Assembly: GCA_020724425.1 (NCBI GenBank)
Contig: DYGY01000009.1
Coordinates: forward strand, 1,240 to 65,239
Origin: Thermaerobacter marianensis
Lineage (GTDB): Bacteria; Bacillota; Sulfobacillia; DVGY01
Direction: 5' to 3'
Length of the DNA stretch: 64,000 nucleotides
The translations under genes and the position numbers were made by a program. The stretch's first letter is position 1; the number at the start of each line of letters is the position of its first letter. The notes beneath the pieces are model-generated. The model saw nothing but the letters and a program-made list of their open reading frames with translations. It was not told the DNA's origin and did no database searches. Below, piece after piece: positions 361 through 64,000 of the stretch.

Positions 361-459
361 ATTATCTAACCTCCTAGGTATTCTTGTTTAGATATTGTTA
401 ACCAATTTCCTGCCGATAGGTTAACAATAGTTTAGCACGCTTATGGGTTCTTCCGAATA

Positions 460-1293: not shown

Positions 1294-1330
1294 GATAGGG
1301 GGAGTGATTATTTTGATAGGCGGTTGATAA

Positions 1331-29436: not shown

Positions 29437-29447
29437 AAAGATTTACC

Positions 29448-30791: not shown

Positions 30792-32275
30792 TCTTTAGTA
30801 CCTCCTAAAAGAGCCGTAATTTCGGCAAGTACACGGTCAATTTCCGCATTCAAAGATGCACGTTTCTCCTCGTATCGCTGAATCAGATCCATCGGGTCAA
30901 GAATCTCTTCCTCCTCATGGGGATAGCCGCACAGGTCGAGGTTATAACCAAAATCATCTGTAAGCTGCTTTACTGTGTATTTTTTCGCCTTATCGAAGCC
31001 GTCTATATTGATTTCCTGCCTGTTATTCCACCATTCAATGACCGGGGCAAAATGCTCTAACTTCATTGGCTTTGTCTTGGAGAAATGCTTGTAACCCTCC
31101 GGCATATCCAGACGGTAGTACCATGTTTCCGTGGTAGGCCCTGTACGGTCAAAGAATAAAAGGTTTGTAGTTATTGACGTGTAGGGCGAGAACACGCTGC
31201 CCGGTAAACGGATTATAGTATGCAGATTAAACTCGGATAGCAGTTTCTTTTTGATGGCAACCTTGGCATTGTCAGTGCCGAACAGGAATCCGTCCGGGAG
31301 AATTACCGCCGCACGACCGTTTTTCTTTAGGCGGTACATGATAACAACCATAAACAAATCCGCCGTTTCACTGCTGGTAAGATCAGATGGGAAGTGGTTT
31401 TTTACATCAGCCTTTTCACTACCGCCGTACGGGGGATTCATTAAAATAACGTCGAACTGGTCATCTTCCGTGTAATCCAGCACATCACGCAGCAGGGAGT
31501 TTTCATGGTAGATTCTGGGCACGTCCAGACCATGCAGCAGCATATTGGTAATGCACAGCATATACGGAAACTGCTTCTTCTCAATGCCGTAGATGGAATC
31601 ATCATATTTAACCCGGTCATCCGTTGTCTTTATTTGGGGCGCCAGTTCCTTCAGCCAGCTAACAATAAAGCCACCAGTACCGCAGGCAAAGTCCGCCATC
31701 CGCCCACCAATTTTCGGCTGTATCATTTTGGCCATAAAATCCGTGACCGCACGGGGCGTATAAAATTCACCGGCAGAACCTGCGCTCTGCAATTCACGCA
31801 GGATGGATTCATAGATTTCGCCGAATGCGTGGCTCTCCTCATAATCGCTTAAATCCAGTTCATCGATGACGTTGATGACCTGACGAAGCAATACACCATC
31901 CTTCATATAGTTGTTAGCGTCCTCAAAAGTAGTTTTAACAATAGATTTCTTAAGAGGAGTATCTGGTGTAACATTAAGATTCTTCAATGTAGGAAACAGG
32001 GTATTGTTGACAAAGTTCATCAGAGTATCGCCGGTCATAGCTTTGCCGCTTTTATCATCCACAGCCCAATTTCTCCAACGACACTCTTCCGGAATGATGG
32101 ACTGATAATTATCATCATCTATTTCCCAGTCATCTTCTCTGGTATCATATATCTTTAAAAACAGCATCCATGAAAGCTGCTCTATCCGTTGTGCATCACC
32201 ATTAATACCGGCATCATTGCGCATAATGTCACGAATTCTTTTTATAAAATTCGATAAACTGCTCATATTAATCAA
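30788..32275 (-). CDS. hsdM: Type I R-M DNA methyltransferase subunit HsdM (N6-adenine)
   Basis: N6-MTase motif IV NPPYGG (ILMNPPYGGSEKAD), motif I region DFACGTGGF, N-terminal HsdM-N domain. Confidence 0.9.
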   Translation of the reverse strand: MINMSSLSNFIKRIRDIMRNDAGINGDAQRIEQLSWMLFLKIYDTREDDWEIDDDNYQSIIPEECRWRNWAVDDKSGKAMTGDTLMNFVNNTLFPTLKNLNVTPDTPLKKSIVKTTFEDANNYMKDGVLLRQVINVIDELDLSDYEESHAFGEIYESILRELQSAGSAGEFYTPRAVTDFMAKMIQPKIGGRMADFACGTGGFIVSWLKELAPQIKTTDDRVKYDDSIYGIEKKQFPYMLCITNMLLHGLDVPRIYHENSLLRDVLDYTEDDQFDVILMNPPYGGSEKADVKNHFPSDLTSSETADLFMVVIMYRLKKNGRAAVILPDGFLFGTDNAKVAIKKKLLSEFNLHTIIRLPGSVFSPYTSITTNLLFFDRTGPTTETWYYRLDMPEGYKHFSKTKPMKLEHFAPVIEWWNNRQEINIDGFDKAKKYTVKQLTDDFGYNLDLCGYPHEEEEILDPMDLIQRYEEKRASLNAEIDRVLAEITALLGGTKE

Positions 32276-34614
32276 CCTGCCTTGTAAATTTCTTCTTCTA
32301 ATTCCTTAATTGCTCTGAGATATCCATCCTTACCGCCGAAGAATTGTGCAATCCTTGAAGGTTTGCCAAATTTCTGAAACGGATCAAGCTTTAAAATCTC
32401 AGTTTTCTCGATTTCGTATATCCCGGCGTTCATATACTTATCCAAAAGAGCCTCCAGCACCTCGCGAGCTGCGCCCTTATACTTATTTAAGAAATCACGC
32501 TTCTTGACATTATTGGCGCGTTCTTGGCGCGTCAGCGGTTTCTGGTCAAACGCAACATGACAGATAAAATCAAAATCGTCCACATCCGCCATATTCCGAT
32601 CTGCTTTCAGATTTTCCAGGTTGATGCCGCGCTCCAAAAACAAGGCCCTGATGTTTTCTTTCTTCTCCTCGACAGACCAATGGCGGATAAAATTATCTAG
32701 AGAAGCATATGTACCCAAAACATTTGACTTGGTGTAATCGATAATGCTTTCCTGCCGAAGCAGCTTACCGTTAGCGTCATAAACAGAAACAATCTTGCCG
32801 ATTATTTCAACCTTACAACCGTTTGCATCAACAATAGGCTTTTCTTTCGGTTCTGAGTCTGGGCCATAAGGTGTATCAGGGCCAGGTTCGGAAATATGAC
32901 TGTCGCCTTTACCGTAATTGTCATCTTGCTCAATGGGGCCATCCCACTCTGGATCAGCAAACAGGCGCGTCACATTACGAAAGTCCATGACCACAAAGTG
33001 TGTTTTTCCTTCCTTCTCACGAACCCGGGTACCACGTCCGATAATTTGCTTGAATTCAGTCATAGAGCCTATCATCTGGTCAAGGACAATCAGTTTAGTC
33101 ATCTTGCAGTCAGCGCCAGTAGAAAGGAGCTTAGATGTTGTTGCAATAACCGGATATGGGGAAGAAACAGAGATGAAATAGTCGAGTTTGCTCTTGCCGT
33201 ATGAGTTACTGCCGGTTATGCGAACCACGTAATCGGGATTCTGCTTGACCATATCGGCGTTTAGGTTGTTAAGCGCAATCCGCATCCGTTCGGCGTGATC
33301 CTCGTTGGCGCAGAACACAATCGTCTTCTGCATTCTGTCAGTACTTTTCAAGTATTCCGTAATCTCTTTGGCAACCTCATATGTACGGTCTTCGATGATG
33401 ATTTTGTAGTCAAAGTCACTGTTTGTATAAATACGGTCTTCAATCTCATTGCCGTTCTTGTCCCGCTGGCCTTTATATGGACGCCAGCCTTCACCAATGT
33501 TGGTGCGGATATTGATAACCCTAAACGGAGCAAGGAAACCGTCTTCGATACCTTCACGGAGACTGTAAGTGTATATTGGCTCTCCAAAATAATCAATATT
33601 GGAGATATATTTTGTTTCCTTCGGAGTAGCAGTCATACCAATTTGCGTAGCTGACGAGAAATATTCGAGAATCTTGCGCCAGTTGCTGTCTTTTTTCGCT
33701 GACCCGCGATGACACTCATCTACGATGATGAGGTCGAAGAAATCCTTATGGAACAGCTTGGCAAGACGGCTGACGGTTTCGTCTTCATCGCTTTCGCACT
33801 CGTCATCCTCCCGGTCTGTCAACTGCTGATACAGAGAGAAATAGACCTCATAGGAGGTGACGGTTATAGGATCATCCTTGGCAAAATTGATTTTATGAAT
33901 CGTTTTCGCCAACGGTGCAAAATCTTGCTGAATCGACTGATCAACAAGAATGTTGCGGTCAGCAAGATAAAGTACCTTTTTCTTGATGCCACTCTTTAAC
34001 AGGCGATAGACAATCTGGAAAGCAGTGTATGTCTTGCCGGTGCCGGTTGCCATGACAAGTAGAATCCTCTGCTGTCCCCTGGCGATAGCTTCTACCGTGC
34101 GGTTGATAGCATTGCGCTGATAATAGCGCGGTGGGTATGTTGTCTGGCTTGTGTAGTAGGGCTGATCTATGATTTGCTTTTCGTTGTCAGTCAGACCTAC
34201 ATCCATCTGATACCGGTCTATTAATTCATCAGGAGAGGGAAACTCGGACAAAGGAATCTCTCGTTCCTGGCCGGTTATAAAGTCATGCTCATAAAAAGCG
34301 TCACCATTAGAACTGTAGGCAAAAGGCACATCAAGCATCCGGGCGTAGGTCATGGCCTGTTGCAAGCCGTATGATACAGTGTGGTTGTTGTCCTTTGCCT
34401 CAACTATGGCAATGGGTTTATTTGGATTTATATAAAGAATATAGTCAGCCTTTTTCGGCTTTTCACGGAACACAAAATTTCCCTTTAGGTTAATCTTACC
34501 TTCCGTGATTTTTGTTTCCATCGTTATATGGTCAAGGCTCCATTTAGCGGTGATTGCCGGAGTGATATATCGGAGCTTGATATCTTCTTCGGTCATCAGT
34601 TTTTTATCAATCAT
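32272..34614 (-). CDS. hsdR: Type I restriction enzyme R subunit HsdR
   Basis: N-terminal PD-(D/E)xK nuclease region (IVEAKD), SF2 helicase motifs LVMATGTGKT (I) and IVDECHR (II). 780 aa is a shorter-than-average HsdR. Confidence 0.85.
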   Translation of the reverse strand: MIDKKLMTEEDIKLRYITPAITAKWSLDHITMETKITEGKINLKGNFVFREKPKKADYILYINPNKPIAIVEAKDNNHTVSYGLQQAMTYARMLDVPFAYSSNGDAFYEHDFITGQEREIPLSEFPSPDELIDRYQMDVGLTDNEKQIIDQPYYTSQTTYPPRYYQRNAINRTVEAIARGQQRILLVMATGTGKTYTAFQIVYRLLKSGIKKKVLYLADRNILVDQSIQQDFAPLAKTIHKINFAKDDPITVTSYEVYFSLYQQLTDREDDECESDEDETVSRLAKLFHKDFFDLIIVDECHRGSAKKDSNWRKILEYFSSATQIGMTATPKETKYISNIDYFGEPIYTYSLREGIEDGFLAPFRVINIRTNIGEGWRPYKGQRDKNGNEIEDRIYTNSDFDYKIIIEDRTYEVAKEITEYLKSTDRMQKTIVFCANEDHAERMRIALNNLNADMVKQNPDYVVRITGSNSYGKSKLDYFISVSSPYPVIATTSKLLSTGADCKMTKLIVLDQMIGSMTEFKQIIGRGTRVREKEGKTHFVVMDFRNVTRLFADPEWDGPIEQDDNYGKGDSHISEPGPDTPYGPDSEPKEKPIVDANGCKVEIIGKIVSVYDANGKLLRQESIIDYTKSNVLGTYASLDNFIRHWSVEEKKENIRALFLERGINLENLKADRNMADVDDFDFICHVAFDQKPLTRQERANNVKKRDFLNKYKGAAREVLEALLDKYMNAGIYEIEKTEILKLDPFQKFGKPSRIAQFFGGKDGYLRAIKELEEEIYKAG

Positions 34615-42965: not shown

Positions 42966-43016
42966 CCTCGAATTAGAGTTTTTCCTATCGGGGAAACTCT
43001 AGACGAGGTGATTTGA

Positions 43017-43418
43017 ATGTATCGTTGGCTGGTTATTGCTCTTTTGCCTTTGCTTTTAACTGGTTGCAATTTTGGTAGTCCTGCTAAACAACCCGAACCC
43101 TCTGATGCTCAGATTAAGATGGCAGTGGAGGAGAAACTGAAGACAGAAGAAATGAGGGCTCTGATTAGAGAGACTATTAGGGAACAGCAGGCTGAACTGA
43201 CTGCTCAGGAGATTGTCGTTTCCACTGAGGGTCAGAAGGTTATGCAGGAAGAGATGAAAAAGCTAATGGAGGCTCCTGAGGTACAAAAAGCTTTAGAGGA
43301 TGCTGTTAAGAAAGCCATGGAGAGTCCACAAGTACAGAAGACTATGGAAGAAGGAGTCTTAAAGTCTCTTCAGCAAATATTGCAAAAAGCAGGGCAGGGT
43401 GGCCAAGAACAGCAGTAA
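43017..43418 (+). CDS. Lipoprotein with E/K/Q-rich repeats (hypothetical)
   Basis: Lipobox LLTGC. Repeated PEVQKALEDAVKKAMESPQVQKTMEEGV units. Confidence 0.5.
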   Translation: MYRWLVIALLPLLLTGCNFGSPAKQPEPSDAQIKMAVEEKLKTEEMRALIRETIREQQAELTAQEIVVSTEGQKVMQEEMKKLMEAPEVQKALEDAVKKAMESPQVQKTMEEGVLKSLQQILQKAGQGGQEQQ

Positions 43419-43456
43419 ATGGTGCCCAGTTCTCTAGATACCATGATATAATATAG

Positions 43457-44308
43457 GTGGATAGAGAAATAGGGGGTGGAGTCGTGGTCTATATCTACGC
43501 AACCATAATTGTTTTCCTCCTCTTTTTGGTCTTGGCTGCTGAACATGTATTAAATCGTTATGTTCATACAAGAAACAGCAAGAGGGTCCTTTTTGCTGAA
43601 ACAGGCCTAGGAATTATCTTAGGTGTACTTTTGTCTGTATATTTTTGGCCAGAAGGGCCTTTTTATGCAGTTGTTTTGACAGCCATGGGGCTGTCTTTTG
43701 CCATTGTGGTTCTTCTGACTTTGGCAACTGTAGAGTTCTGGAGAACTCGCAAACAAAAGGCATATGATCAGGAAATTAGGGGTTTGAGGAAAGAATTGGA
43801 TGATTGCCGGGCAGATCTTGAAAAGTTCTCTTTTAAGATAAGGGAGTTAGAGAACAAGAAAAGCCTTATTGAACGGAGAAACCAGGAAGAACTAGCCAAG
43901 CAATCAAGCCTGTTAGATCAGGTGGAAGGTTGGAAACAGGGAGAAGGATTGGCAAGGGTTCGTTCTGTCAAGGTTGAAGACTGGCAAAATGAACTAAAGA
44001 TTCTCAGTCTGGAAGCATTAGAGGAAAGAGAAAAGGAAGTTAACAGGCTGCTAGTTGAAGCTACAGAGCTTGCTGATTCAGAAAGACATCAGCAACTAGT
44101 TACTCAACTTAACCTTATCCGTTTAGAAGTTATTAAGCGTAAGCTTGATGAACCAAATAGACAGATTAGGGAACTACAAAAAGAGATCTTTGAAGTGAGT
44201 AGTAAGCTAGAGTGGAAACATAAAGAACTCAAAGTCATAGAAGAGAATCTGCAGCACTGGAAAGAACTTAAAAAACAGTTCTTAAGAGAAAGGGTCCGCC
44301 TCGATTAG
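43457..44308 (+). CDS. Membrane-anchored coiled-coil protein (hypothetical)
   Basis: Three N-terminal TM segments, then a long heptad-like E/K/L-rich region. Confidence 0.45.
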   Translation: MDREIGGGVVVYIYATIIVFLLFLVLAAEHVLNRYVHTRNSKRVLFAETGLGIILGVLLSVYFWPEGPFYAVVLTAMGLSFAIVVLLTLATVEFWRTRKQKAYDQEIRGLRKELDDCRADLEKFSFKIRELENKKSLIERRNQEELAKQSSLLDQVEGWKQGEGLARVRSVKVEDWQNELKILSLEALEEREKEVNRLLVEATELADSERHQQLVTQLNLIRLEVIKRKLDEPNRQIRELQKEIFEVSSKLEWKHKELKVIEENLQHWKELKKQFLRERVRLD

Positions 44309-44324
44309 AAAGGGGGTTCCTGAG

Positions 44325-44750
44325 GTGAGTCATATAAGTACCTATGAAGCCGATATCGCATTGCCTATAGAAGAAGGAGAAGAACTTGAAGACTCTTTAG
44401 GCTTTCAGTTGTTAAGACAGGCAATGGAAGTAATGGCAGAGGAACATAACGGTTTTCTAAGCAAAGAGATTACCGACTATTTTGGTGAAAAGAGCAGGGT
44501 AGATCTAGCACTTATCACTAAGAAGTTTCCTGTGGGTCTTGGCGTAAATGTGGATAGAAAAACCGGTACCTTAAAGTTCCTTTATGATGATTATGGTTAT
44601 GATGCAAAACTGATAGAGGAACTAAAGAATCAGATTAAGCAGAACTATACCTCTTTGGCTGTGGCTCAGGCCCTAAAGGACTTAAACTACAGGGTTGAGC
44701 TTGAGGAGAACAATGCTGAAAAGAAGGTAGTTATCCGCGGCTATATATAA
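44325..44750 (+). CDS. DUF1257 (Ycf35-like) family protein
   Basis: MSHIS... N-terminus and a C-terminal AVAQALKDLNYRVELEE...KKVVIRGY pattern, as I recall for Ycf35/DUF1257. GTG start after GGGGG. Confidence 0.5.
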   Translation: MSHISTYEADIALPIEEGEELEDSLGFQLLRQAMEVMAEEHNGFLSKEITDYFGEKSRVDLALITKKFPVGLGVNVDRKTGTLKFLYDDYGYDAKLIEELKNQIKQNYTSLAVAQALKDLNYRVELEENNAEKKVVIRGYI

Positions 44751-44763
44751 GGAGCTGAGGAGA

Positions 44764-44997
44764 ATGTCAGATCAAAAAATTGAGATAGTGGTAAACAAAG
44801 AGGGGAAGCTTGAGGTTGAGTTTACTGGTTTCCCCGGTGAACTCTGTTATGCTGAAGCAGAGAGATTAGAAAAGATTTTAAAAAAGTTTGGTGTGTCAGT
44901 TAAAGCAACTGAACTTATTGCCAAGTCACCAGAACAGATAGCTTGTGAACTCGGTCTTGCGGAAAAAGAGGAGGGGATTCGCCCTGAAAGAGATTAA
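44764..44997 (+). CDS. DUF2997-like small protein
   Basis: 77 aa. KIEIVVNKEGKLEVEFTGFPGELC fits the (I/L)EFxIHPDG(R/K)VExxVxGxxGxxC pattern of DUF2997. Confidence 0.45.
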   Translation: MSDQKIEIVVNKEGKLEVEFTGFPGELCYAEAERLEKILKKFGVSVKATELIAKSPEQIACELGLAEKEEGIRPERD

Positions 44998-45133
44998 ACT
45001 AGAGATTGGCATTCATCCTGACGGGGTAGAGATCTATGAGCATGGTGATGAGGAACTGACAGAGGAGTTTTTGGCTAAGTTAAGAGAGTATGGTATTAAG
45101 ACAGAGAAAATCTTTGCTTCTCCCTGTGGTTAG
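44945..45133 (+). CDS. Possible second DUF2997-like small ORF (overlapping, alternative frame)
   Basis: KLEIGIHPDGVEIYEHGDEELTEEF also fits the DUF2997 pattern. Strong RBS AAAGAGGAGGGG at 44965 but no canonical start close after it; the ATG at 44945 lacks an RBS. Confidence 0.25.
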   Translation: MNSVLRKKRRGFALKEIKLEIGIHPDGVEIYEHGDEELTEEFLAKLREYGIKTEKIFASPCG

Positions 45134-45135
45134 AG

Positions 45136-46803
45136 GTGATATATTTGCATGAATATCTTGATGATAACTGGTTAAGGGCAGGAGCCCTTAAAAGAAAAAG
45201 CAACTATTCACCAGTCATTATCTTTGAAACGACAGACCCTAAACGCCTTGAACAGATGAAGAGGTTTGTTCGTTCCCATGAGGAGTTTACAAACTATGAA
45301 CATGTTTTTGTTTATGATCAATGGCAGGGTCTTTTGAAGTTGAATGATAAGGGGACATGGGATGTATATAAAAAGCCTGCCGGCAATTCCTCTTTAAGCA
45401 GAAGGGTTAGTGGTCAGGAAGGTATTGAGCTTGCCAATATGAGATCGTCCTTAAGGGAAGTGGATGGATTCTTTAAGCAGGGTAAAACCCTGTTTATTCT
45501 TCAAAACCTTTCTGAAAGCAGAGAGTGGGAGTCGGGTCTGCAATCAGCGTTAAGATCCTGGGCTGTGGACCTAGACGTTATCTCCAAGGGTTCAACTATC
45601 TTTGTTCAAACTGCTGATGCTAGCAGCATTGTGGACAAGTTTACAAAGGAATTGGTAGTTATAATTACGGTTGATCCTGCTTCAGAAGATGAACGGAAGG
45701 GTATCTTAGAGAGTGTTGCTAAAGAGCTGGAGGTTAAGCTAACTAGGAATGTTATCTCTGAGCTGGTGGTTTCCACAGCGGGTTTGAATCTCCATCAGTT
45801 AGAGAGTATTCTCTTAGAGTCCTTTTATACAAGGGGTGCTTTTGAGCTAGGTGAGATTAAAAAGCTTAAAGCTGATCTTGTCAAGAAGTCGGGAGTCTTA
45901 GAGGTTAAAGACCCTATCTTTGGTTTTGATGATATCGGGGGTTATGGGGCTAGCAAGCAATTTGTAAAGAGATACATTGTTAATGTCTTAGAAGAGTCTG
46001 ACCGGGCTATGCAGTTCTCTTTATCCTTGCCAAAGGGTGTTCTTCTTTTTGGACCTCCGGGTACCGGGAAGAGTCTTTTTGCTCATGCTTTGGCTAAGGA
46101 AGTGAAGTTGCCGTTTATCACACTTTTGACTGAGAATGTATATTCCAAGTGGTTTGGTGAGTCTGGGCAGAATATGTCTCAGGCTATCAAGATGGCAGAG
46201 AAGATGTCTCCAGCCATTGTCTATGTTGATGAAATAGATCGTTTCGGTAGGAGAGGGCAAGGTTTTGGTGATTCGGCAGGGGAAGAGTCTAGAAGGGTTT
46301 TTTCCCAATTTTTAGAGTGGTTGGGGAAGCCGGATCGGGAGGCTATCATTGTTGGTACAACCAATGTTCCTGAACATCTAGATGAAGCCTTTATTCGGAC
46401 AGGGAGATTTGATTACAAGATTCCTTTCCTTTATCCTGGGGATCGGGCTAGGTTAGAGATTCTGTTAGTTCATTTAGGTTTGAAGCCGGGTGTAAGGAAA
46501 AAAGCTGTACCCTTAGGGACATCAGAGGAGTCTTTTCTAGACTTTCTGTATGATGAGATTGTTCCTGCTACCCAGTACTTTTCAGGAGCGGAAATTGAGG
46601 AGCTTGTTACCCGGGCTAAGAGAATCGCCTTTACCCTTAAGGCAAACACTTTAGAACCCCAGCATCTGCAAAAGGCAGCAGATACCTTTAGGATAAATCG
46701 TAAGGAACGGGAGAGATCTGTTTCTTTGTATATAAAGCAGGCTCAGGAATATACTGATGATCAGATGTTTCTTGATGAATGGATTAAGGAAATGGGTCTA
46801 TGA
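45136..46803 (+). CDS. AAA+ ATPase (classical clade, single AAA module) with about 270-aa N-terminal domain of unknown function
   Basis: Walker A LLFGPPGTGKS, Walker B VYVDEIDRF, SRH/arginine region TTNVPEHLDEAFIRTGRFDYKI. Confidence 0.85.
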   Translation: MIYLHEYLDDNWLRAGALKRKSNYSPVIIFETTDPKRLEQMKRFVRSHEEFTNYEHVFVYDQWQGLLKLNDKGTWDVYKKPAGNSSLSRRVSGQEGIELANMRSSLREVDGFFKQGKTLFILQNLSESREWESGLQSALRSWAVDLDVISKGSTIFVQTADASSIVDKFTKELVVIITVDPASEDERKGILESVAKELEVKLTRNVISELVVSTAGLNLHQLESILLESFYTRGAFELGEIKKLKADLVKKSGVLEVKDPIFGFDDIGGYGASKQFVKRYIVNVLEESDRAMQFSLSLPKGVLLFGPPGTGKSLFAHALAKEVKLPFITLLTENVYSKWFGESGQNMSQAIKMAEKMSPAIVYVDEIDRFGRRGQGFGDSAGEESRRVFSQFLEWLGKPDREAIIVGTTNVPEHLDEAFIRTGRFDYKIPFLYPGDRARLEILLVHLGLKPGVRKKAVPLGTSEESFLDFLYDEIVPATQYFSGAEIEELVTRAKRIAFTLKANTLEPQHLQKAADTFRINRKERERSVSLYIKQAQEYTDDQMFLDEWIKEMGL

Positions 46804-46805
46804 GG

Positions 46806-46838
46806 TACAGCCGGTCTAAGACCGGCTGTCTGGCAGGT
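46806..46838. terminator. Bidirectional terminator (ACAGCCGGTCTTAGACCGGCTGT)
   Basis: Perfect hairpin between the convergent AAA ATPase gene and the SASP gene. Confidence 0.65.
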
Positions 46839-46861: not shown

Positions 46862-47056
46862 CTACCTACGGCCATAAGGGTTAGTTTGACTAGCCATCTG
46901 TTGTTGTGCCATCGCTACTGCAAGTTTGGTTAAACTACCACAAGCGGCTGAAGGTACAGAGCCCCACCCATCGCGACGAACCTGCTCAGCTACCCCCATT
47001 TGTGCCGCCAATTCAGCCTTTAATTCTTCGGACATAATTCCTCTACGTCTAGGCAT
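46862..47056 (-). CDS. Alpha/beta-type small acid-soluble spore protein (SASP)
   Basis: 64 aa. ELAAQMGV...GSLTKLAVAMAQQQ matches the two conserved SASP blocks (EIA.E.GV, GGEITKRLV..AEQQ). Confidence 0.8.
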   Translation of the reverse strand: MPRRRGIMSEELKAELAAQMGVAEQVRRDGWGSVPSAACGSLTKLAVAMAQQQMASQTNPYGRR

Positions 47057-54321: not shown

Positions 54322-56478
54322 ATGGACTATCCAATAGCTCATTCCAAGAATAGTGATGAAAAATGGCATTATTTGCGAGAGCACTTGATTGAGGTAGCAA
54401 ATATGACCCACACTTTCTCTAGCACAATGTATCAAGGAAAATTTGGTGCACTTGCCTGGTTAGTTGGGCTTGCTCATGATATTGGTAAGATGGATTCCCG
54501 TTTTCAAGAGTATCTCATGGCAATCCAAGAGGGAAGATCAGCTACAAAAGTTCCACATGCTCCTTTAGCAGCTTATCTGCTATATCGTCTAAAAGAACCA
54601 ATTAAGACAGTTGGGCCTCTAACTGTTGGGGGACATCATTCAGGTGTAAGTGAGATTGGTAATCTTACTGCAAAACTAGCAAACTATGAGTTGGATTCTG
54701 GCCTTGAAGAGTCCATGCGTAATAGTCTAACAGAGATGATTTATGAGCAAAAGCTTACAACAGAAATAACTCCATCGCTCAATTCTCTACAAACGGAGAT
54801 GCTTATAAGAATGCTTTTTTCTGCTTTAGTTGATGCTGATAGATTAGACACTGAAAGACATTTTGACTCTAATACGTCTAGGTTGCGAGCTCATAAAGTT
54901 ACTTTGACTGACTTGGCGAAAAGATTTAAGAATAATCAGGATGAACTTATATTAGGGGTACAGGATAAGCTCTCCAAGGTAAGTGTAGTTCGTAATGAAG
55001 TCTATCAAGCATGTTTGGATGCTGCTAAGGGTAAACCTGGTTTTTATAGACTGACAGTACCAACCGGGGGAGGAAAGACAAGGAGTTCACTGGCGTTTGC
55101 TTTAGATCATGCCATTAAGAATGGGCTCAGAGGCATATTTTTTGCCATACCTTACACCAGCATAATTGATCAGACTGCACAAGTGTACAGGTCGATTCTT
55201 GGAGATGATGCAGTGCTTGAGCATCACAGTCAAAGAAACATTACTGATACTGAGGACTATAGTGAGCAAAAGCTTAGATTAATGCTAGCAGAAGAAAATT
55301 GGGACATGCCGGTTATTGTCACAACGAATGTCCAGTTGTTAGAAAGTCTATTTTCTAACAGCCCTTCAAAATGTAGAAAAATCCATCGTCTAGCTAACAG
55401 TGTCATTGTATTTGATGAGGCTCAGACTCTACCTGTGGAACTACTCAAACCTACGCTCGATGCTTTACGAGATTTAGTTGAAAACTATGGTTCTACGGTA
55501 GTTTTATCTACTGCCACTCAACCAGCTCTGCAATCTAGTTACTTATCAGAGCTTGATATTAAAGAGATTGTACCTGATAATGCTCAGCATTTCGAGCAGT
55601 TGAGGAGAGTTCAGTATAGAAGTTTAGAAGAACTACTAACAATGGAAGCGTTAGCCGAAGAAGTTTCTCGACATGAACAAGTGCTAGTTATCTTGAATAC
55701 CAGGAAAAGTGCTGTAGAGCTTGTGAAAACTTTAGATTCTCCGTATTGCTTCCACTTATCGACCCTTCTTTGTGGGTCTCATCGCAGAAAGATATTGCAA
55801 GAGGTTAGACAGCGACTTAACTATGGACATCCCATTCAGCTCATCAGTACTCAGGTTATCGAAGCAGGTGTTGACCTTGATTTTCCAGTTGTTTATCGTG
55901 CACTAGGTCCCCTTGATCGAATTGTTCAAGCAGCTGGTCGTTGTAACAGGGAAGGAAAATTAGACTATGGTTCAACTGTGATATTCGAGCTGGAAAATGA
56001 TAGAGCTCCGAAAGGACCATATAAGGCGGGTCTTGAGAAATCTAAACTGATTTTGTCTGAATACTCATCACCAGAGATATTGCATGATCCTAAGGTCTTT
56101 GATGAGTACTTTATCCAGTTGTATGATTCCTTAGGTAATAACTTGGATAGATATAACATTCAAGATATGAGAGAAAGGCTCAACTTTCCCGAGGTAGCTG
56201 CCAGGTATCGGCTTATCCCCGAGAAGACTATTCCCGTTTTGGTCAGATACGGTGATTACATGACTACACTTAAGAGCTGGGAAGAGTATCCATCCAGAGA
56301 GACATGGAGACTGCTTCAACCATATTTAGTAAGCATTTATGAGAGTGAAGCAAAGATACATTTCAGAGATGGACTCTTGACCGAGGTTTCTAACGGACTT
56401 TATATGTGGGAGGGGGTATATGATGAAGTACTTGGTTTGAGTGCTATACAGCGTGATCCTAGTGATTTGATTACTTAA
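54322..56478 (+). CDS. cas3: CRISPR-associated nuclease/helicase Cas3 (HD domain + SF2 helicase)
   Basis: N-terminal HD motif (LVGLAHDIGKMD), helicase motif I VPTGGGKT, motif II VVFDEAQ. Confidence 0.9.
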   Translation: MDYPIAHSKNSDEKWHYLREHLIEVANMTHTFSSTMYQGKFGALAWLVGLAHDIGKMDSRFQEYLMAIQEGRSATKVPHAPLAAYLLYRLKEPIKTVGPLTVGGHHSGVSEIGNLTAKLANYELDSGLEESMRNSLTEMIYEQKLTTEITPSLNSLQTEMLIRMLFSALVDADRLDTERHFDSNTSRLRAHKVTLTDLAKRFKNNQDELILGVQDKLSKVSVVRNEVYQACLDAAKGKPGFYRLTVPTGGGKTRSSLAFALDHAIKNGLRGIFFAIPYTSIIDQTAQVYRSILGDDAVLEHHSQRNITDTEDYSEQKLRLMLAEENWDMPVIVTTNVQLLESLFSNSPSKCRKIHRLANSVIVFDEAQTLPVELLKPTLDALRDLVENYGSTVVLSTATQPALQSSYLSELDIKEIVPDNAQHFEQLRRVQYRSLEELLTMEALAEEVSRHEQVLVILNTRKSAVELVKTLDSPYCFHLSTLLCGSHRRKILQEVRQRLNYGHPIQLISTQVIEAGVDLDFPVVYRALGPLDRIVQAAGRCNREGKLDYGSTVIFELENDRAPKGPYKAGLEKSKLILSEYSSPEILHDPKVFDEYFIQLYDSLGNNLDRYNIQDMRERLNFPEVAARYRLIPEKTIPVLVRYGDYMTTLKSWEEYPSRETWRLLQPYLVSIYESEAKIHFRDGLLTEVSNGLYMWEGVYDEVLGLSAIQRDPSDLIT

Positions 56479-56488
56479 GGGAGGAGGA

Positions 56489-57214
56489 TTGATATTGAAT
56501 AATTCGCAATATGATGTAGCGGTCAAATTTGAAGGCGAGCTTGCTTGTTTTACCAGACCAGAGTTTAAGGTAGAACGAGTTACCTATCCAGTCATAACTC
56601 CTTCAGCAGCTAGAGGAGCTTTAGAGGCAATCTTCTGGAAGCCAGAGTTCAGGTGGGAAATTAGAGAAATCTGGTTATTAAAGCCAATTAAGCAAATTGC
56701 CATTATGCGTAACGAAGTAGATAGTCGGCAGAGTAACAGAACCGATGGTTTCTTTATAGAAGATAAACGACAGCAACGAACAAGCTTATTTCTAAAGGAT
56801 GTATCTTATCTCATATTCGCTGATGTAAGGCTTAAGGAAGATGTTGATTTTCACAAGAAAAAATATATCGAGCAATTTAATCGGCGAGTGGAAAAAGGAC
56901 AATGTCACCATCAACCATATTTAGGGACGAGAGAGTGTTCGGCTTATTTTGATTCCCCCGCTGGTAATGAAGTCCCTAAGGATATCGATATGGAAATTGG
57001 AAACATGTTGTTTGATATAGCCTATCGTAGTAGTGAAAACAAGCAGGATATGAAGTTTGTGAGACATCTTGATAATGAGGCTCACATAGTTGATGGATAC
57101 GTTCAACCTTTGTATTTTATGGCTAATCTAGATAAAGGCATCCTGAAGGTACCAGTAAGTAAATACCAGGAGCTGTATAGATTGGAGGGAGTAAATGTTA
57201 AGGGAATTAGTTGA
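56489..57214 (+). CDS. cas5: Cas5, subtype I-C (Cas5d)
   Basis: Position and size match Cas5d. N-terminus VKFEGELACFTRPEF... is typical. The true start is probably TTG 56495. Confidence 0.8.
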   Translation: MILNNSQYDVAVKFEGELACFTRPEFKVERVTYPVITPSAARGALEAIFWKPEFRWEIREIWLLKPIKQIAIMRNEVDSRQSNRTDGFFIEDKRQQRTSLFLKDVSYLIFADVRLKEDVDFHKKKYIEQFNRRVEKGQCHHQPYLGTRECSAYFDSPAGNEVPKDIDMEIGNMLFDIAYRSSENKQDMKFVRHLDNEAHIVDGYVQPLYFMANLDKGILKVPVSKYQELYRLEGVNVKGIS

Positions 57215-59054
57215 GAAAGCAGATGAATTAGAGCATAGAGGTAAATTGAATCCTATTGGATATAAACGTTATAGTGACCCTATTGCCTGGGTTGTGCATC
57301 TTTATCCTGACGAAGATCGTATAGAGCTTGAAGAGTATGAAGGGGAAAATCGACCACGGGCTCAGTCTTCAAGAACCAGTGGGGTATATCCTTATCCGTT
57401 TGCTGATGAAGCTTCCTATGTCTTGGGAATTAAAGAGATGCCTAAAGATAAGATAGATAAAAAGGCATCGAAGAAACATCAAGCATACTTAGCGTTATTA
57501 GATGAAATGGCCCAATCTGAATATTTCCAAGAACCTTTACTTCAGGAAGCAACCTCAACAATCATTAAAAAATTAACAGATGGATCTATTGCTGAGACCT
57601 TTGCTATTAAAGAGATCTACGCTAAGGATTGGATTACATTTGTCTATGAAAAGGATAAGTTAAGGCACCAACATTTGCATGAGATCGAAGCTACAAGAAT
57701 ATTTTGGGCAAACAAGACAGAACAAGAATTTTGCACTACGGAACGGTATCAGTGTGCTATCTGCGGTAAAGAGAAGCGAGTTGCACTTAAGTCACCTAGT
57801 AGCATAGTAGTTATGGGAAGCAATCGGCAGTTAATGAGCTTTAACAAGAATTCCTTTGTATCTTATCGGTATAAGCAGGATGAAGCTCACTTAGGTGTCT
57901 GCCAAGCCTGTGCAGAGAAATCTACTCAAGCACTTGATCATCTGGTGCGGACTCAATCATATACCCTCTTTGAAGATAAACCAATGAGTGGTCAACCAAA
58001 GAGTGATAGCGCTAGAAATCAAGTTGCTGTCTATTGGTTGAAACAAGATGTAGATTTCTCTTTAGAGGGACAATCAATGAATCTTTTAGATCTGTTTTCT
58101 GTTCCAATGTCTCTTCCTACTAATGATGAGATTGTAACAACGGAGGAGTTAATTAAGAAGTTTCTAAAGCTTCCTTCCGAGCAGTCCCAAGGTGCCATTA
58201 ATATCGATAAGAATACATTTTATCTCTCAATCATTAGTCCAAATGGACCTGGGCGGATCGCTGTTAGGGATTGGTTTGAAGTATCAGCTGACAAGGTACA
58301 GGAATCGCTAGTCAATTACCTGGATTCTTTGAGGTTGATAGGAACCAATGGTAAACCCAGTAGGCCATATACCATTTATCAGTTGCTTCAACCCCTAAAG
58401 GATACTGACCCTAACATGGCTAGGGCCCTGTTGAGAAGTGCATATTTAGGCGAGAGGCCTCCTTTCTCTGTATTCCAGACAGCCATAAGGAGGTTACGTG
58501 TGACCGGTGTACGTGATGGCAGTCTTTCAAGCACTAGAAAAAGCGAACACGAACGGGAGTTAGCGGCAACTGAAGTATGGCAAAGACTGTGTTCAATTAT
58601 CAAGTTCTATCTGACATTCGGAACGGAGGAGGCAATAAGCATGGAAAAACTCGACAGTAGCAGGAACATCTCTGCATATCAATCAGGACGACTTTTGGCA
58701 ATATTGGAAGATGTTCAGCGGCAGGCATTAGGTAATACCTTGTCATCTACTCTTGTCGACCGATATTATGGTTCTGCTTCAACTGCACCATCTACCGTAT
58801 TCCCTTTGTTATTAGGTATGGCTACTAAGGCACACATGCCAAAAGTGCGTAAGAATCAGAGGGGGTACACATATCTAGAAACGTTATTAGAGGATGTTAT
58901 GTCGGCAATTGATAAGACTGGAGGTTTTAAGAGAACCCTATCGTTATTAGAACAAGGAGAATTTGCCCTCGGATTCTATCACCAGCGTGCAGAGCTCAAA
59001 AGTAGATTTGCTAAAAATCAAGAGGAGGTAACAGCTGATGGAGATGTATCTTGA
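57195..59054 (+). CDS. cas8c: Cas8c (Csd1), subtype I-C large subunit
   Basis: 619-aa gene between cas5d and cas7. Internal Cys pair CAICGK...C..C. Operon synteny. Confidence 0.8.
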   Translation: MLRELVEKADELEHRGKLNPIGYKRYSDPIAWVVHLYPDEDRIELEEYEGENRPRAQSSRTSGVYPYPFADEASYVLGIKEMPKDKIDKKASKKHQAYLALLDEMAQSEYFQEPLLQEATSTIIKKLTDGSIAETFAIKEIYAKDWITFVYEKDKLRHQHLHEIEATRIFWANKTEQEFCTTERYQCAICGKEKRVALKSPSSIVVMGSNRQLMSFNKNSFVSYRYKQDEAHLGVCQACAEKSTQALDHLVRTQSYTLFEDKPMSGQPKSDSARNQVAVYWLKQDVDFSLEGQSMNLLDLFSVPMSLPTNDEIVTTEELIKKFLKLPSEQSQGAINIDKNTFYLSIISPNGPGRIAVRDWFEVSADKVQESLVNYLDSLRLIGTNGKPSRPYTIYQLLQPLKDTDPNMARALLRSAYLGERPPFSVFQTAIRRLRVTGVRDGSLSSTRKSEHERELAATEVWQRLCSIIKFYLTFGTEEAISMEKLDSSRNISAYQSGRLLAILEDVQRQALGNTLSSTLVDRYYGSASTAPSTVFPLLLGMATKAHMPKVRKNQRGYTYLETLLEDVMSAIDKTGGFKRTLSLLEQGEFALGFYHQRAELKSRFAKNQEEVTADGDVS

Positions 59055-60132: not shown

Positions 60133-60137
60133 GACTC

Positions 60138-62328: not shown

Positions 62329-64000
<1,672 letters not shown>

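What the first reader, a model, noticed from the sequence alone, without database searches (positions are those of the whole stretch)
43017..46803. Six-gene operon ending in a DUF1257 / DUF2997 / AAA+ ATPase module of unknown function, located between two defence loci
Tightly spaced genes (gaps 14-39 nt) encode a lipoprotein with E/K/Q repeats, a TM-anchored coiled-coil protein, a Ycf35/DUF1257-like protein, one or two DUF2997-like mini-proteins and a classical-clade AAA+ ATPase. The ATPase carries a 270-aa uncharacterised N-domain. The operon ends at a perfect bidirectional terminator. I recall the DUF1257-DUF2997-AAA triad as a conserved gene neighbourhood with no known function. Its position between a type I R-M island and CRISPR-Cas, and its ATPase-plus-small-partner composition, make it a candidate uncharacterised system. 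A defence role or membrane-remodelling or quality-control role would fit.
Basis: partly seen in the sequence, partly recalled or inferred. Interest (0 to 1): 0.7.

Follow-up and report, generated by a model that had tools for sequence, protein, structure and literature searches.

The report
Conserved AAA+ ATPase cassette, function unknown
This is a five-gene chromosomal cassette conserved across many Bacillota: a membrane-anchored coiled-coil protein, three small partner proteins (one unannotated and always ending in Cys-Gly) and a Cdc48-like protein-unfolding ATPase; it is related to the long-orphaned cyanobacterial and plastid Ycf35/DUF2997/AAA gene sets and looks like stress or quality-control machinery rather than phage defence.

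Summary
The conserved unit is five genes, g2–g6 (43484–46803). The lipoprotein g1 is never co-conserved (0 of 71 loci).

g2–g3–g4–g5–g6 are colinear in every genome locus and close-clade metagenome locus with enough upstream DNA. g3–g4–g5–AAA persists in a clade only 32–39% identical.

Pfam membership:
- DUF1257 on g3 is sub-threshold (15.8 bits against 22.2).
- DUF2997 on g4 is sub-threshold (19.5 bits against 24.1).
- Both are rescued by orthologue sets, profile–profile comparison with bona fide members, a shared MSH N-terminus, and annotated DUF1257–DUF2997–AAA triads on cyanobacterial and Bacillus plasmids.

New finding: g5 is skipped by public gene calls. It ends in an invariant Cys-Gly-stop in 36 of 36 genome and 56 of 56 metagenome loci.

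Defence is not supported. Flanks elsewhere are housekeeping, and the family-specific domain is absent from phage, plasmid and viral collections.

Best reading: a membrane-tethered AAA+ unfoldase with thiol-bearing adaptors. The function remains inferred.

The parts
43017..43418 (+). g1: 133-aa lipoprotein (lipobox LLTGC) with weak GerD-like similarity. It is adjacent to the cassette but is NOT part of the conserved unit.
   Evidence: ORF. Pfam GerD E 6.2e-5 (23.4 bits, cut-off 29.5). NCBIfam spore_GerD 37.5 bits against a cut-off of 100. No tblastn hit in any of 71 related loci.
43444..43452 (+). Extended -10-like element TGATATAAT between g1 and g2; a possible own promoter for g2-g6 (inferred).
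   Evidence: Read from the sequence. Not flagged by the sigma-70 scan, because no -35 match was found.
43484..44308 (+). g2: membrane-anchored coiled-coil protein. It has 3 N-terminal TM segments and a cytoplasmic coiled coil of about 190 aa carrying the invariant motif W-x4-G-x2-R-x-R-x6-W. The ORF is open from GTG 43457, but the likely start is GTG 43484, just after the SD GGGGTGGAG.
   Evidence: (public gene call of 274 aa). Co-conserved upstream of g3 in 63 of 71 loci. An analogous TM plus coiled-coil gene lies directly downstream of the AAA gene in the divergent clade.
44325..44750 (+). g3: 141-aa Ycf35/DUF1257-like protein that starts MSH, with a KA1-like alpha+beta fold.
44764..44997 (+). 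g4: 77-aa DUF2997 mini-protein with the invariant motif GF.GE.C..E.
   Evidence: Pfam DUF2997 E 8.8e-4, 19.5 bits, below the 24.1 cut-off. 19 of 27 orthologues match, best E 3.8e-6. hhalign against bona fide DUF2997: probability 94%, E 9.7e-8. Alignment.
44984..45133 (+). g5: mini-protein of about 49 aa with an invariant C-terminal Cys-Gly. It is unannotated in public gene calls. The ORF is open from 44945. The SD GAGGAGGGG at 44968-44976 points to a non-canonical start (CTG 44984 or ATT 44993). It is a distant paralogue of g4.
   Evidence: Conserved cluster c3. CG-stop in 36 of 36 genome loci with all synonymous codons used, and in 56 of 56 metagenome loci. hhalign g4 against g5: E 7e-5, probability 63%. 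No Pfam match.
45136..45945 (+). g6 D1: degenerate AAA+ module lacking Walker A (FET.DPKR) and Walker B (IIQN), with a lid-like ATAGLNLHQLESILLES motif. It is the family-specific domain. The probable true start of g6 is TTG 45145.
45946..46803 (+). g6 D2: active classical-clade AAA+ module with Walker A GPPGTGKS, Walker B VYVDEID, pore loop KWFGES, sensor 1 TTN and Arg fingers RTGRFD, plus a lid and a C-terminal helix.
   Evidence: Pfam AAA E 2.4e-32. Walker A, pore loop, sensor 1 and Arg fingers; Walker B read from the translation. The nearest solved relatives are the D2 rings of Cdc48/p97/VAT at 226 bits, then AFG2, NVL and Rix7, with FtsH at 116 bits.
46807..46829 (.). Perfect 11-bp GC-rich inverted repeat (ACAGCCGGTCT / AGACCGGCTGT) between the convergent g6 and SASP-like genes. 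It is a plausible bidirectional terminator hairpin but has no T-tract.
   Evidence: Not flagged by the terminator scan.

Best explanation
g2-g6 encode a chromosomal, vertically inherited protein-remodelling machine that works at the membrane.

Shown: g6 is a Cdc48-like tandem AAA+ protein. Its N-terminal ring module (D1) has lost nucleotide binding. Its D2 module keeps every motif needed for ATP-driven threading of a polypeptide through a central pore.

Inferred:
- g6 forms a hexamer. The dead D1 ring serves as the oligomerisation and docking platform. The D2 ring does the unfolding or extraction.
- g2, a three-TM protein with a long cytoplasmic coiled coil and an invariant W..G..R.R..W patch, tethers or organises the ATPase at the cytoplasmic face of the membrane.
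- g3 (Ycf35/DUF1257-like, KA1-type adaptor fold), g4 (DUF2997) and g5 (its Cys-Gly-tailed paralogue) are stoichiometric adaptor or regulatory subunits. They select substrates or gate the ATPase.
- Their invariant cysteines, one in a surface loop of g4 and one on the C-terminal tail of g5, most likely act as a thiol switch or metal/Fe-S ligand pair. This would couple activity to redox or metal status.

The system is the Bacillota counterpart of the cyanobacterial and plastid DUF1257(Ycf35)-DUF2997-AAA sets. In cyanobacteria the Ycf46 AAA ATPase lies in a three-gene operon that is strongly stress-induced. The physiological role I favour is stress-responsive quality control of membrane-proximal proteins, not immunity.
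For: - Five-gene colinearity: g2 in 63, g3 in 65 and g4 in 57 of 71 species-level loci. Every locus lacking g3 has no upstream DNA. g5 forms a conserved cluster.
- g3-g4-g5-AAA persists at 32-39% N-domain identity. There a TM plus coiled-coil gene sits directly downstream of the AAA gene.
- Tight spacing or overlap of g3/g4/g5/g6 suggests stoichiometric co-translation.
- D2 motifs are intact (Walker B by eye). The nearest solved relatives are Cdc48/p97/VAT D2 unfoldase rings.
- g2 topology: basic residues follow TM1 and TM3, which puts the coiled coil in the cytoplasm. It carries an invariant motif.
- g3's fold matches KA1 adaptor domains.
- The g4 Cys and the g5 Cys-Gly are invariant under protein-level selection.
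- Homology to bona fide DUF1257, DUF2997 and the triad AAA. Annotated triads exist, one of them next to an Hsp70 gene.
- DUF2997-ycf35 lie beside a ferredoxin in cyanobacteria (PMC4284462) and in a cyanophage.
- The ycf46 operon is stress-, redox- and ppGpp-induced (PMC7496141; bioRxiv 10.1101/2025.07.21.665879).
- Flanks are housekeeping. Some family members carry intein-like insertions.
Against: - No experiment or complex model supports any physical interaction.
- The substrate is unknown.
- A thiol or metal role for the cysteines is inferred from invariance and from ferredoxin and Nfu neighbours. The Nfu and HypE-like neighbours are confined to one subclade.
- I could not verify that slr0373/slr0376 (Synpcc7942_0416/0418) are DUF1257/DUF2997 proteins. 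I also could not verify that the plasmid triad ATPases are true Ycf46 orthologues, so the link to ycf46 stress biology is indirect.
- hhalign probabilities for g3 (74%) and for D1 (64%) are moderate. The templates held only two sequences each.
- Canonical triads lack both g5 and g2, so the Bacillota system may work differently.
- A third, very divergent ATPase subclade lacks all the partners.
Confidence: 0.4

Rival explanations
1. Anti-phage defence system: the ATPase with its small partners senses infection and triggers abortive infection, as an IetAS-like or other AAA-based system does.
For: - In this window the cassette lies between a type I R-M locus and a type I-C CRISPR-Cas locus.
- g6 hits PADLOC IetA models at E 2e-27 and NCBIfam IteA at 88 bits.
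- On cyanobacterial plasmids the canonical triads sit among RloB, zeta-toxin, AAA_21 and DUF4007 genes.
- Canonical DUF1257 is common on plasmids and in cyanophages.
Against: - The IetA hits cover only the generic AAA module and fall far below the family cut-off (88 against 510 bits). There is no IetS protease and no effector domain of any kind.
- g2-g5 have no credible PADLOC hit: no match below E 0.01.
- The R-M and Cas genes are about 8 kb away on each side, with housekeeping genes in between.
- 124 flanking proteins from 23 loci show no recurring defence system. They show syntenic housekeeping genes instead.
- 55-64% identity across species and stable synteny point to vertical descent, though copy number per genome was not tested.
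- The N-domain has no relative in the phage, plasmid or viral-contig collections.
Confidence: 0.08
2. Cofactor or metal-centre maturation chaperone. g3, g4 and g5 carry or assemble an Fe-S or other thiol-bound cofactor, with the g5 Cys-Gly tail acting as a swinging arm. The AAA+ inserts the cofactor into a membrane-associated client, in the manner of the MoxR, CbbQ or CoxD type of ATPase or of HypE/HypC-type carriers.
For: - Invariant Cys in g4 and an invariant terminal Cys-Gly in g5, which becomes C-x3-C-G in the divergent clade.
- Ferredoxin lies next to DUF2997-DUF1257 in cyanobacteria and in phage P-SSM2, where PurM and a carbamoyltransferase are also adjacent.
- A HypE-like AIRS gene lies directly upstream of the cassette and an Nfu gene directly downstream in one subclade: 29 of 44 and 22 of 60 loci.
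Against: - The HypE-like and Nfu neighbours are confined to one lineage. They are absent from this window and from the other clades.
- g6 is a Cdc48-type threading ATPase with an aromatic pore loop, not a MoxR-type one.
- One Cys per small protein is too few for a cluster unless the proteins oligomerise.
- No client enzyme is conserved nearby.
Confidence: 0.15
3. Ubiquitin-like or sulfur-carrier-type tagging system. g5 is a minimal beta-grasp-like modifier whose C-terminal glycine is activated and conjugated. The Cdc48-like ATPase then processes the tagged proteins.
For: - The invariant C-terminal glycine sits immediately before the stop codon.
- g5 has a beta-beta-alpha-beta sequence pattern, read by eye from the alignment.
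- From my own knowledge, Cdc48 and proteasomal ATPases elsewhere act on Ub-, SAMP- or Pup-tagged substrates; g6's D2 is Cdc48-like.
Against: - No E1/ThiF-like, PafA-like, E2 or JAB protease gene is conserved in or near the cassette.
- The penultimate residue is Cys, not Gly.
- g5's core of about 46 aa is smaller than known beta-grasp modifiers.
- No structural model of g5 was obtained.
Confidence: 0.07
4. Sporulation- or germination-specific machinery, a SpoVK-like role in spore-forming Bacillota.
For: - g1 is a GerD-like lipoprotein, and an alpha/beta-type SASP-like gene lies just downstream.
- SipL/SPOCS, SH3 and CAP-domain genes recur near the cassette in one lineage.
- The Bacillus halotolerans plasmid triad also sits near a SASP gene.
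- Source databases label the family COG 'SpoVK/Ycf46/Vps4'.
Against: - g1 and the SASP gene are not co-conserved with the cassette: 0 of 71 and 4 of 71 loci.
- The sporulation neighbours are limited to one lineage.
- Homologous triads occur in cyanobacteria, which do not form endospores.
- No sporulation sigma-factor promoter was established.
Confidence: 0.1

Closest known systems
Cyanobacterial and plastid Ycf35 (DUF1257) / DUF2997 / Ycf46-type AAA ATPase gene sets, including the annotated DUF1257-DUF2997-AAA triads on Pseudanabaena, Geminocystis, Nostoc, Planktothrix and Bacillus halotolerans plasmids
   Same: - The three core components are the same and are adjacent.
- g3 shares the MSH N-terminus and aligns over 111 columns.
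- g4 shares the G..G..C loop, with hhalign probability 94%.
- The ATPase has the same architecture of an N-terminal degenerate module plus a C-terminal AAA, at 508-553 aa, and aligns into D1.
- Function is unknown in all of them.
   Different: - The Bacillota version adds two conserved genes that are absent from the canonical sets: the TM coiled-coil protein g2 and the Cys-Gly-tailed g5.
- g3 has an insertion of about 20 residues and fails the Pfam threshold.
- The Bacillota version is chromosomal and syntenic, whereas these examples are plasmid-borne.
- The DUF2997-DUF1257 pair also occurs without any AAA, next to ferredoxin.
- I could not test whether the chromosomal ycf46 operon partners (slr0373, slr0376) are DUF1257 or DUF2997 proteins.
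Cdc48 / p97 / VAT and AFG2/SPATA5, NVL/Rix7 (type II classical-clade AAA+ unfoldases)
   Same: - Tandem AAA+ architecture.
- D2 is most similar to the D2 rings of these proteins: 226 bits to Cdc48.
- The aromatic pore loop KWFGES and the SRH arginines are present.
- The D1 fold is closest to AFG2.
   Different: - There is no double-psi-barrel N-domain.
- D1 has lost Walker A and Walker B entirely.
- NCBIfam CDC48 scores 124 bits against a cut-off of 802.
- The partners are unrelated to the UBX or Ufd1-Npl4 cofactors.
FtsH with HflK/HflC (a membrane-tethered AAA+ quality-control machine organised by membrane-anchored coiled-coil or SPFH proteins)
   Same: A classical-clade AAA+ ATPase operates at the cytoplasmic face of the membrane together with a membrane-anchored scaffold protein. 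This is an analogy of layout only, based.
   Different: - g6 has no TM segment and no protease domain.
- g2 is not an SPFH protein.
- FtsH similarity is lower than Cdc48 similarity: 116 against 226 bits.
IetAS anti-phage system (IetA AAA ATPase plus IetS protease)
   Same: The AAA module of g6 matches the IetA models at E 2e-27.
   Different: - The match is limited to the generic AAA domain.
- NCBIfam IteA scores 88 bits against a cut-off of 510.
- There is no IetS-like protease, and the partners are different.

Membership tests
Pfam DUF1257 / Ycf35 (PF06868) | Score at or above the Pfam gathering threshold of 22.2 bits | tested here: not met
   g3 scores 15.8 bits, E 0.017. 0 of 43 orthologues match at E<=0.01. 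The divergent-clade g3 scores 16.6 bits. Positive controls score 103.9 and 57.3 bits.
Pfam DUF1257 / Ycf35 (PF06868) | Remote homology to bona fide members, by profile-profile comparison | tested here: inconclusive
   hhalign of the g3 set against two bona fide DUF1257 proteins gives probability 74%, E 2.8e-5, over 111 columns from residue 1. The g3 HMM picks only the DUF1257 proteins among the plasmid and phage proteins.
Pfam DUF1257 / Ycf35 (PF06868) | Characteristic N-terminal MSH motif, reported for essentially all Ycf35 proteins in PMC13060386 | tested here: met
   g3 starts MSHISTYE. Most orthologues start MSH(I/V)S(S/T)Y, and M1 and S2 are invariant. The bona fide members start MSHF.
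Pfam DUF2997 (PF11211) | Score at or above the Pfam gathering threshold of 24.1 bits | tested here: not met
   The window's g4 scores 19.5 bits, E 8.8e-4.
Pfam DUF2997 (PF11211) | Family-level homology, from the orthologue set and profile-profile comparison | tested here: met
   19 of 27 g4 orthologues match at E<=0.01, best 3.8e-6. hhalign against bona fide DUF2997 gives probability 94%, E 9.7e-8. The G..G..C loop is shared.
Pfam DUF2997 (PF11211), tested for g5 | Any detectable similarity of g5 to DUF2997 | tested here: not met
   No Pfam hit for any of 36 g5 orthologues. hhalign against bona fide DUF2997 gives probability 0.6%. g5 is linked only indirectly, to g4, at E 7e-5 and probability 63%.
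DUF1257-DUF2997-AAA conserved gene neighbourhood | The three genes are adjacent and co-conserved across genomes | tested here: met
   Colinear in 65 of 65 genome loci with upstream DNA for g3 and in nearly all metagenome loci, including a 32-39% identity clade. Annotated triads occur on plasmids.
Classical-clade AAA+ (PF00004) | Walker A, Walker B, aromatic pore loop 1, sensor 1, and a second region of homology with two arginines | tested here: met
   PF00004 at 112.6 bits. GPPGTGKS, KWFGES, TTN and RTGRFD found by motif search; Walker B VYVDEID read from the translation.
Ycf46 (cyanobacterial and plastid AAA ATPase) | Orthology to slr0374 / Synpcc7942_0417, including the N-terminal domain | not testable with these tools
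   No Ycf46 reference sequence or model was reachable. Source databases label homologues 'SpoVK/Ycf46/Vps4 family'. hhalign of D1 against the N-domain of the cyanobacterial triad ATPases gives probability 64%, E 6.7e-5. That those plasmid ATPases are Ycf46-like rests on my recollection of the Ycf46 N-terminal motif.
CDC48 family (NCBIfam TIGR01243) | Full-length match above the cut-off, with an N-domain and two active AAA rings | tested here: not met
   124 bits against a cut-off of 802.65. D1 lacks the Walker motifs. There is no double-psi-barrel N-domain.
IetAS / IteA anti-phage ATPase | Match above the family cut-off, plus a partner IetS protease | tested here: not met
   NCBIfam IteA scores 88 bits against a cut-off of 510. 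The PADLOC IetA hit is limited to the AAA module. There is no protease in the cassette.
GerD spore germination lipoprotein (tested for g1) | NCBIfam NF040801 or Pfam PF17898 above the cut-off | tested here: not met
   37.5 bits against 100, and 23.4 bits against 29.5. The match is colinear in two stretches, so g1 is GerD-like only.

The most novel reading that the evidence does not exclude
The Cys-Gly-tailed mini-protein g5 is a new kind of small protein 'handle'. It would be a covalent or redox-active C-terminal thiol arm: a carrier, a tag or a switch. It would work with DUF2997 and Ycf35 to load or gate a Cdc48-like unfoldase at the membrane. The whole assembly would be the Bacillota form of an ancient redox-coupled proteostasis system whose reduced versions survive as the orphan ycf35 and ycf46 genes of cyanobacteria and plastids.
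Probability: 0.15. Interest if true: 0.8.

Novelty: new variant of a known kind. Interest (0 to 1): 0.55.

Why it matters
Ycf35 (DUF1257), DUF2997 and Ycf46 are long-standing orphans of cyanobacterial and plastid genomes. The papers I could search assign none of them a mechanism.

This work shows four things:
- A clear Bacillota homologue exists as a tightly conserved five-gene cassette.
- The ATPase is a Cdc48-like tandem AAA+ with a dead D1.
- A membrane coiled-coil partner is also conserved.
- An unannotated mini-protein with an invariant C-terminal Cys-Gly is also conserved.

Together these give concrete, testable handles: point mutants, trap mutants, and mass spectrometry of a 5-kDa protein. 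They may be usable in Symbiobacterium thermophilum, which I recall (not checked here) is culturable.

The work also removes a false lead. Proximity to R-M and CRISPR in one genome does not make this a defence system.

Finally, it shows that gene callers systematically miss a conserved component, possibly because of a non-canonical start.

Tried and rejected
- **Word-indexed searches.** The search with the N-domain profile returned only 12 fragments. The search with g3 returned 2 proteins. That second search was a poorly spent call, and it stopped me reaching the chromosomal cyanobacterial Ycf46 contexts.
- **Cluster look-up.** The listing of cluster members on distant representatives gave no organism names.
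- The diverse N-domain alignment A8 was too divergent for the metagenome scan.
- **No solved relative by sequence** for g3, g4 or g5.
- **BFVD** gave one unnamed viral match for g3.
- **HypE-like and Nfu neighbours.** I considered whether the HypE-like AIRS gene (c5) and the Nfu gene (c9) belong to the system. I rejected them as general components. They are restricted to one subclade and are absent from this window.
- **RBS artefact.** I considered whether the g5 terminus is an RBS artefact of g6. I rejected this because all synonymous Cys and Gly codons and all three stop codons are used. The distance to g6 varies from -10 to +1834 nt.
- **g5-like ORFs** in the cyanobacterial, phage and Bacillus plasmid triads: none found.
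- **Sigma-70 promoter and terminator scans** gave numbers no higher than shuffled controls.
- **Rfam and tRNA scans** of the window: nothing found.

Full report
**1. Observation**

The six + strand ORFs are present at the stated coordinates.
- g1 (43017-43418) has a lipobox (LLTGC) and E/K/Q-rich repeats.
- g2 has three hydrophobic segments followed by a coiled coil that is 43% charged.
- g6 has a PF00004 AAA domain at E 2.4e-32.
- A perfect 11-bp inverted repeat (46807-46817 / 46819-46829) follows the g6 stop, between convergent genes. It has no T-tract and was not flagged by the terminator scan.

Pfam recovers DUF1257 on g3 and DUF2997 on g4 only below the gathering thresholds: 15.8 against 22.2 bits and 19.5 against 24.1 bits. 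It recovers nothing on g5.

A type I R-M locus (29448-34614, - strand) lies upstream. A type I-C cas operon lies downstream from 54322. Its array has 26 repeats from 62328. Each locus is separated from the operon by about 8 kb of housekeeping genes. These include a His phosphatase, YkuD, SpoU, CN hydrolases, a GH125-like protein and a 2-hydroxyacid dehydrogenase on one side. On the other side are a SASP-like gene, two FAD oxidoreductases, an ABC transporter and DUF2935.

**2. What is conserved**

The ATPase has more than 120 full-length homologues at 55-62% identity. I fetched 71 species-level genome loci. Nearly all are Bacillota MAGs, including Symbiobacterium and Fermentithermobacillaceae.

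tblastn with each window protein gave these counts:

| Gene | Loci with a hit, of 71 |
|---|---|
| g2 | 63 |
| g3 | 65 |
| g4 | 57 |
| g5 | 19 |
| g1 | 0 |
| either flanking gene | 0 |

The order is always g2-g3-g4-(g5)-g6. The six loci lacking g3 all have the ATPase at a contig edge.

Clustering crude gene calls showed that g5 is in fact a conserved family, c3, present in 36 loci. Public gene calls on the window's own contig skip g5. They leave a 147-nt gap there.

A metagenome scan added 63 loci. HMMs built from the orthologue sets found g2-g3-g4-g5-AAA colinear in the close clade. They found g3-g4-g5-AAA in a divergent clade at 32-39% N-domain identity. In that clade a multi-TM plus coiled-coil gene lies directly downstream of the ATPase. 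In L126 it overlaps the ATPase stop codon. A third, very divergent ATPase group (L074, L132, and probably L122 and L130) lacks the partners.

The conserved system is therefore five genes, g2-g6. g1 is a lineage-specific neighbour.

An extended -10-like TGATATAAT (43444-43452) lies between g1 and g2. A strong SD precedes GTG 43484, which suggests that g2-g6 can be transcribed on their own. This is an inference.

**3. The parts**

**g6.** The 270-aa N-domain modelled confidently (pLDDT 86, pTM 0.81).
- It lacks Walker A (FET.DPKR) and Walker B (IIQN) but keeps a lid-like ATAGLNLHQLESILLES motif.
- D2 has all the catalytic motifs and a KWFGES pore loop (Walker B read).
- D2 is closest to the D2 rings of Cdc48/p97/VAT at 226 bits, well ahead of FtsH at 116 bits.
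- g6 is thus a Cdc48-like tandem AAA+ with a dead D1 and no Cdc48 N-domain.
- The D1 family has 387 representative clusters among 1.84 billion proteins. Two of them carry intein-like insertions.

**g3.**
- It starts MSH, the motif reported for essentially all Ycf35 proteins (PMC13060386).

**g4.** It has an invariant GF.GE.C..E loop.

**g5.**
- It has a core of about 46-55 aa and is a distant paralogue of g4 (hhalign E 7e-5).
- It ends in Cys-Gly-stop in 36 of 36 genome loci. The codons used are TGC 25 and TGT 11 for Cys. For Gly they are GGT 11, GGA 7, GGC 10 and GGG 8. All three stop codons are used, and the distance to g6 varies from -10 to +1834 nt.
- It also ends in Cys-Gly-stop in 56 of 56 metagenome loci. 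In the divergent clade the tail is C-x3-C-G.
- This is selection on the protein terminus, not on the g6 RBS.
- In the window, g5 has a strong SD but only CTG or ATT at the right spacing.

**g2.** It carries an invariant W-x4-G-x2-R-x-R-x6-W patch in its coiled coil.

**4. Relation to DUF1257, DUF2997 and Ycf46**

19 of 27 g4 orthologues hit DUF2997. None of 43 g3 orthologues hit DUF1257 at E<=0.01.

tblastn of full-length g6 against annotated plasmids found cyanobacterial AAA ATPases that align into D1. NCBI annotates their neighbours as DUF1257 and DUF2997 proteins:
- Pseudanabaena: Hsp70 - DUF1257 - [AAA_21 ATPase + hypothetical] - DUF2997 - AAA (508 aa) - WD40.
- Geminocystis, Nostoc and Planktothrix.
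- A 203-kb Bacillus halotolerans plasmid: AAA (553 aa) - hypothetical - DUF1257 - hypothetical - DUF2997.

These proteins pass Pfam clearly. My HMMs pick exactly their counterparts among them.

| Comparison (hhalign) | Probability | E-value |
|---|---|---|
| g4 set vs DUF2997 | 94% | 1e-7 |
| g3 set vs DUF1257 | 74% | 2.8e-5 |
| D1 vs triad-ATPase N-domain | 64% | 6.7e-5 |
| g5 vs DUF2997 | 0.6% | 0.098 |

None of these canonical sets has a Cys-Gly-terminal ORF.

The DUF2997-DUF1257 pair also occurs without an ATPase. It sits next to ferredoxin Fed7 in cyanobacteria (PMC4284462). It sits next to ferredoxin, PurM and a carbamoyltransferase in cyanophage P-SSM2.

The literature gives no function for DUF1257 or DUF2997. 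Ycf46 (slr0374) lies in a three-gene operon induced by many stresses. It has been tied to CO2 utilisation (PMC7496141). In S. elongatus it is tied to RpaB- and ppGpp-dependent growth arrest (bioRxiv 10.1101/2025.07.21.665879). I could not obtain slr0373 or slr0376 to test whether they are DUF1257 or DUF2997 proteins.

**5. Defence or not**

Against a defence role:
- The recurrent neighbours are a HypE-like AIRS protein, DnaE, RsmD, Nfu, SipL/SPOCS, CAP, SH3, a GT2 glycosyltransferase, an ADP-forming acyl-CoA synthetase and FBPase.
- A batch scan of 124 flanking proteins from 23 loci found only PADLOC singletons: one TnpB/Cas12f-like protein, one Csx1-like protein and five mad2/mad3 hits. I suspect, but did not confirm, that the mad2/mad3 hits are ABC-type ATPases. 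The Pfam families in the same batch are housekeeping.
- The D1 domain has no relative in the phage, plasmid or IMG/VR collections.
- g2-g5 have no credible PADLOC hit (no match below E 0.01). The IetA and IteA hits on g6 are generic AAA matches far below the cut-off.

For a defence role: canonical triads on cyanobacterial plasmids do sit among TA-like and defence-like genes. So a conflict-related role for the wider family is not excluded. The Bacillota chromosomal clade, however, behaves like a housekeeping or stress module.

**6. Mechanism**

Shown:
- Tandem AAA+ with a dead D1 and a live D2 of the threading type.
- A membrane-anchored coiled-coil partner.
- Three small co-conserved partners with invariant cysteines.
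- Tight gene coupling.

Inferred:
- A hexamer is tethered at the membrane by g2.
- g3, g4 and g5 dock as adaptors or regulators, probably on D1.
- The g4 Cys and the g5 Cys-Gly tail act as a thiol or metal switch.
- The role is stress-responsive extraction or remodelling of membrane-proximal proteins.

| Reading | Confidence |
|---|---|
| Membrane-tethered AAA+ remodelling machine (best) | about 0.4 |
| Cofactor-maturation chaperone | 0.15 |
| Sporulation-specific role | 0.1 |
| Anti-phage defence | 0.08 |
| Ubl- or sulfur-carrier-type tagging | 0.07 |

The HypE-like (nearest PDB relative HypE) and Nfu neighbours are an attractive lead for chemistry on a C-terminal cysteine. They are confined to one subclade.

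**7. Verdict**

This is a real, strongly conserved system of unknown function. It is a new five-component Bacillota variant of the known but uncharacterised DUF1257-DUF2997-AAA neighbourhood.

Three points need correcting: g1 is not part of the conserved unit, the N-domain is a degenerate AAA+ module and not an unknown fold, and the terminator hairpin has no T-tract. The defence interpretation is not supported.

The most interesting new element is the unannotated mini-protein with the invariant Cys-Gly terminus.

Noticed in passing
window 44945-45133 (+): g5, a conserved mini-ORF, is not called by the public gene predictions on the same contig, which leave a 147-nt gap (L072 4853-5001). In the window it has a strong SD but no ATG, GTG or TTG at the proper spacing; the candidates are CTG 44984 and ATT 44993.
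   Followed up: yes
window 43017-43418 (+): g1 resembles the spore-germination lipoprotein GerD. The matches are colinear but below the cut-offs (NCBIfam 37.5 bits against 100; Pfam 23.4 bits against 29.5). It is not conserved next to the cassette in any related locus.
   Followed up: partly
window 46862-47056 (-): A 64-aa alpha/beta-type SASP-like gene (PF00269, E 0.0013, 19.1 bits against a cut-off of 22) converges on g6. Together with g1 it suggests the host is an endospore-forming Bacillota. An annotated alpha/beta SASP also lies near the triad on the Bacillus halotolerans plasmid (L145 6761-6973).
   Followed up: no
window 54322-61855 and 62328-63999: A type I-C CRISPR-Cas locus. Cas3, Cas5d and Csd1 were identified by Pfam. 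The downstream ORFs to 61855 were not scanned; I presume they are cas7, cas4 and cas1. The array has at least 26 copies of the repeat GTCGCTCCCCGTGCGGGAGCGTGGATTGAAAC and runs to the end of the window.
   Followed up: partly
window 28504-34614 (-): Type I restriction-modification genes: HsdR 32272-34614, HsdM 30788-32275 and HsdS 29448-30791. A 310-aa ORF with no Pfam hit lies downstream at 28504-29436.
   Followed up: no
P0147 (1013 aa) and P0156 (711 aa), distant members of the g6 family: Both carry large insertions inside the AAA domain, between the Walker B/sensor region and the TTN motif. The insertions end in HNS or HNT and look like inteins, a trait I associate with highly conserved housekeeping genes. 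This was read by eye and not tested against intein models.
   Followed up: no
L144 (Prochlorococcus phage P-SSM2, NC_006883) 1-3881: The cyanophage carries a DUF2997-like gene (PSSM2_178) and a DUF1257 gene (PSSM2_179, starting MSHFS) immediately after ferredoxin, PurM and a Nol-like carbamoyltransferase. There is no AAA ATPase. This echoes the cyanobacterial DUF2997-ycf35-fed7 cluster.
   Followed up: partly
L139 (Pseudanabaena galeata plasmid pPg_01) 1-7578: In this canonical triad, an AAA_21/AAA_15 ATPase and a 167-aa hypothetical are inserted between DUF1257 and DUF2997. By eye, the hypothetical has a PD-(D/E)xK-like motif. An Hsp70-family gene lies upstream and a 734-aa WD40 protein downstream.
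   Followed up: no
L045 3177-4214 (cluster c5) and L056 3265-3501 (cluster c9); also L092-L112 and L117: An AIR-synthase-related gene whose nearest solved relative is HypE (2z1e, E 1.9e-17) lies directly upstream of g2. An Nfu-type NifU-domain gene lies directly downstream of g6. Both are found in only one subclade and are absent from this window.
   Followed up: yes
window 43457-44308, residues 159-176 of the listed 283-aa ORF: There is a strictly invariant W159, R167, R169 and W176 (G164 at 92%) inside the otherwise poorly conserved coiled coil of g2. It is a probable docking site.
   Followed up: partly
window 42979-43002 (+): A GC-containing hairpin (GAGTTTTTCC tatc GGGGAAACTC) lies just after the 2-hydroxyacid dehydrogenase stop and before g1. 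It may terminate the upstream operon.
   Followed up: no
L126 6141-7313 (-) and 7684-8181 (-): The divergent-clade locus carries extra paralogues of the TM plus coiled-coil partner near the cassette: one full-length copy and one coiled-coil fragment.
   Followed up: no
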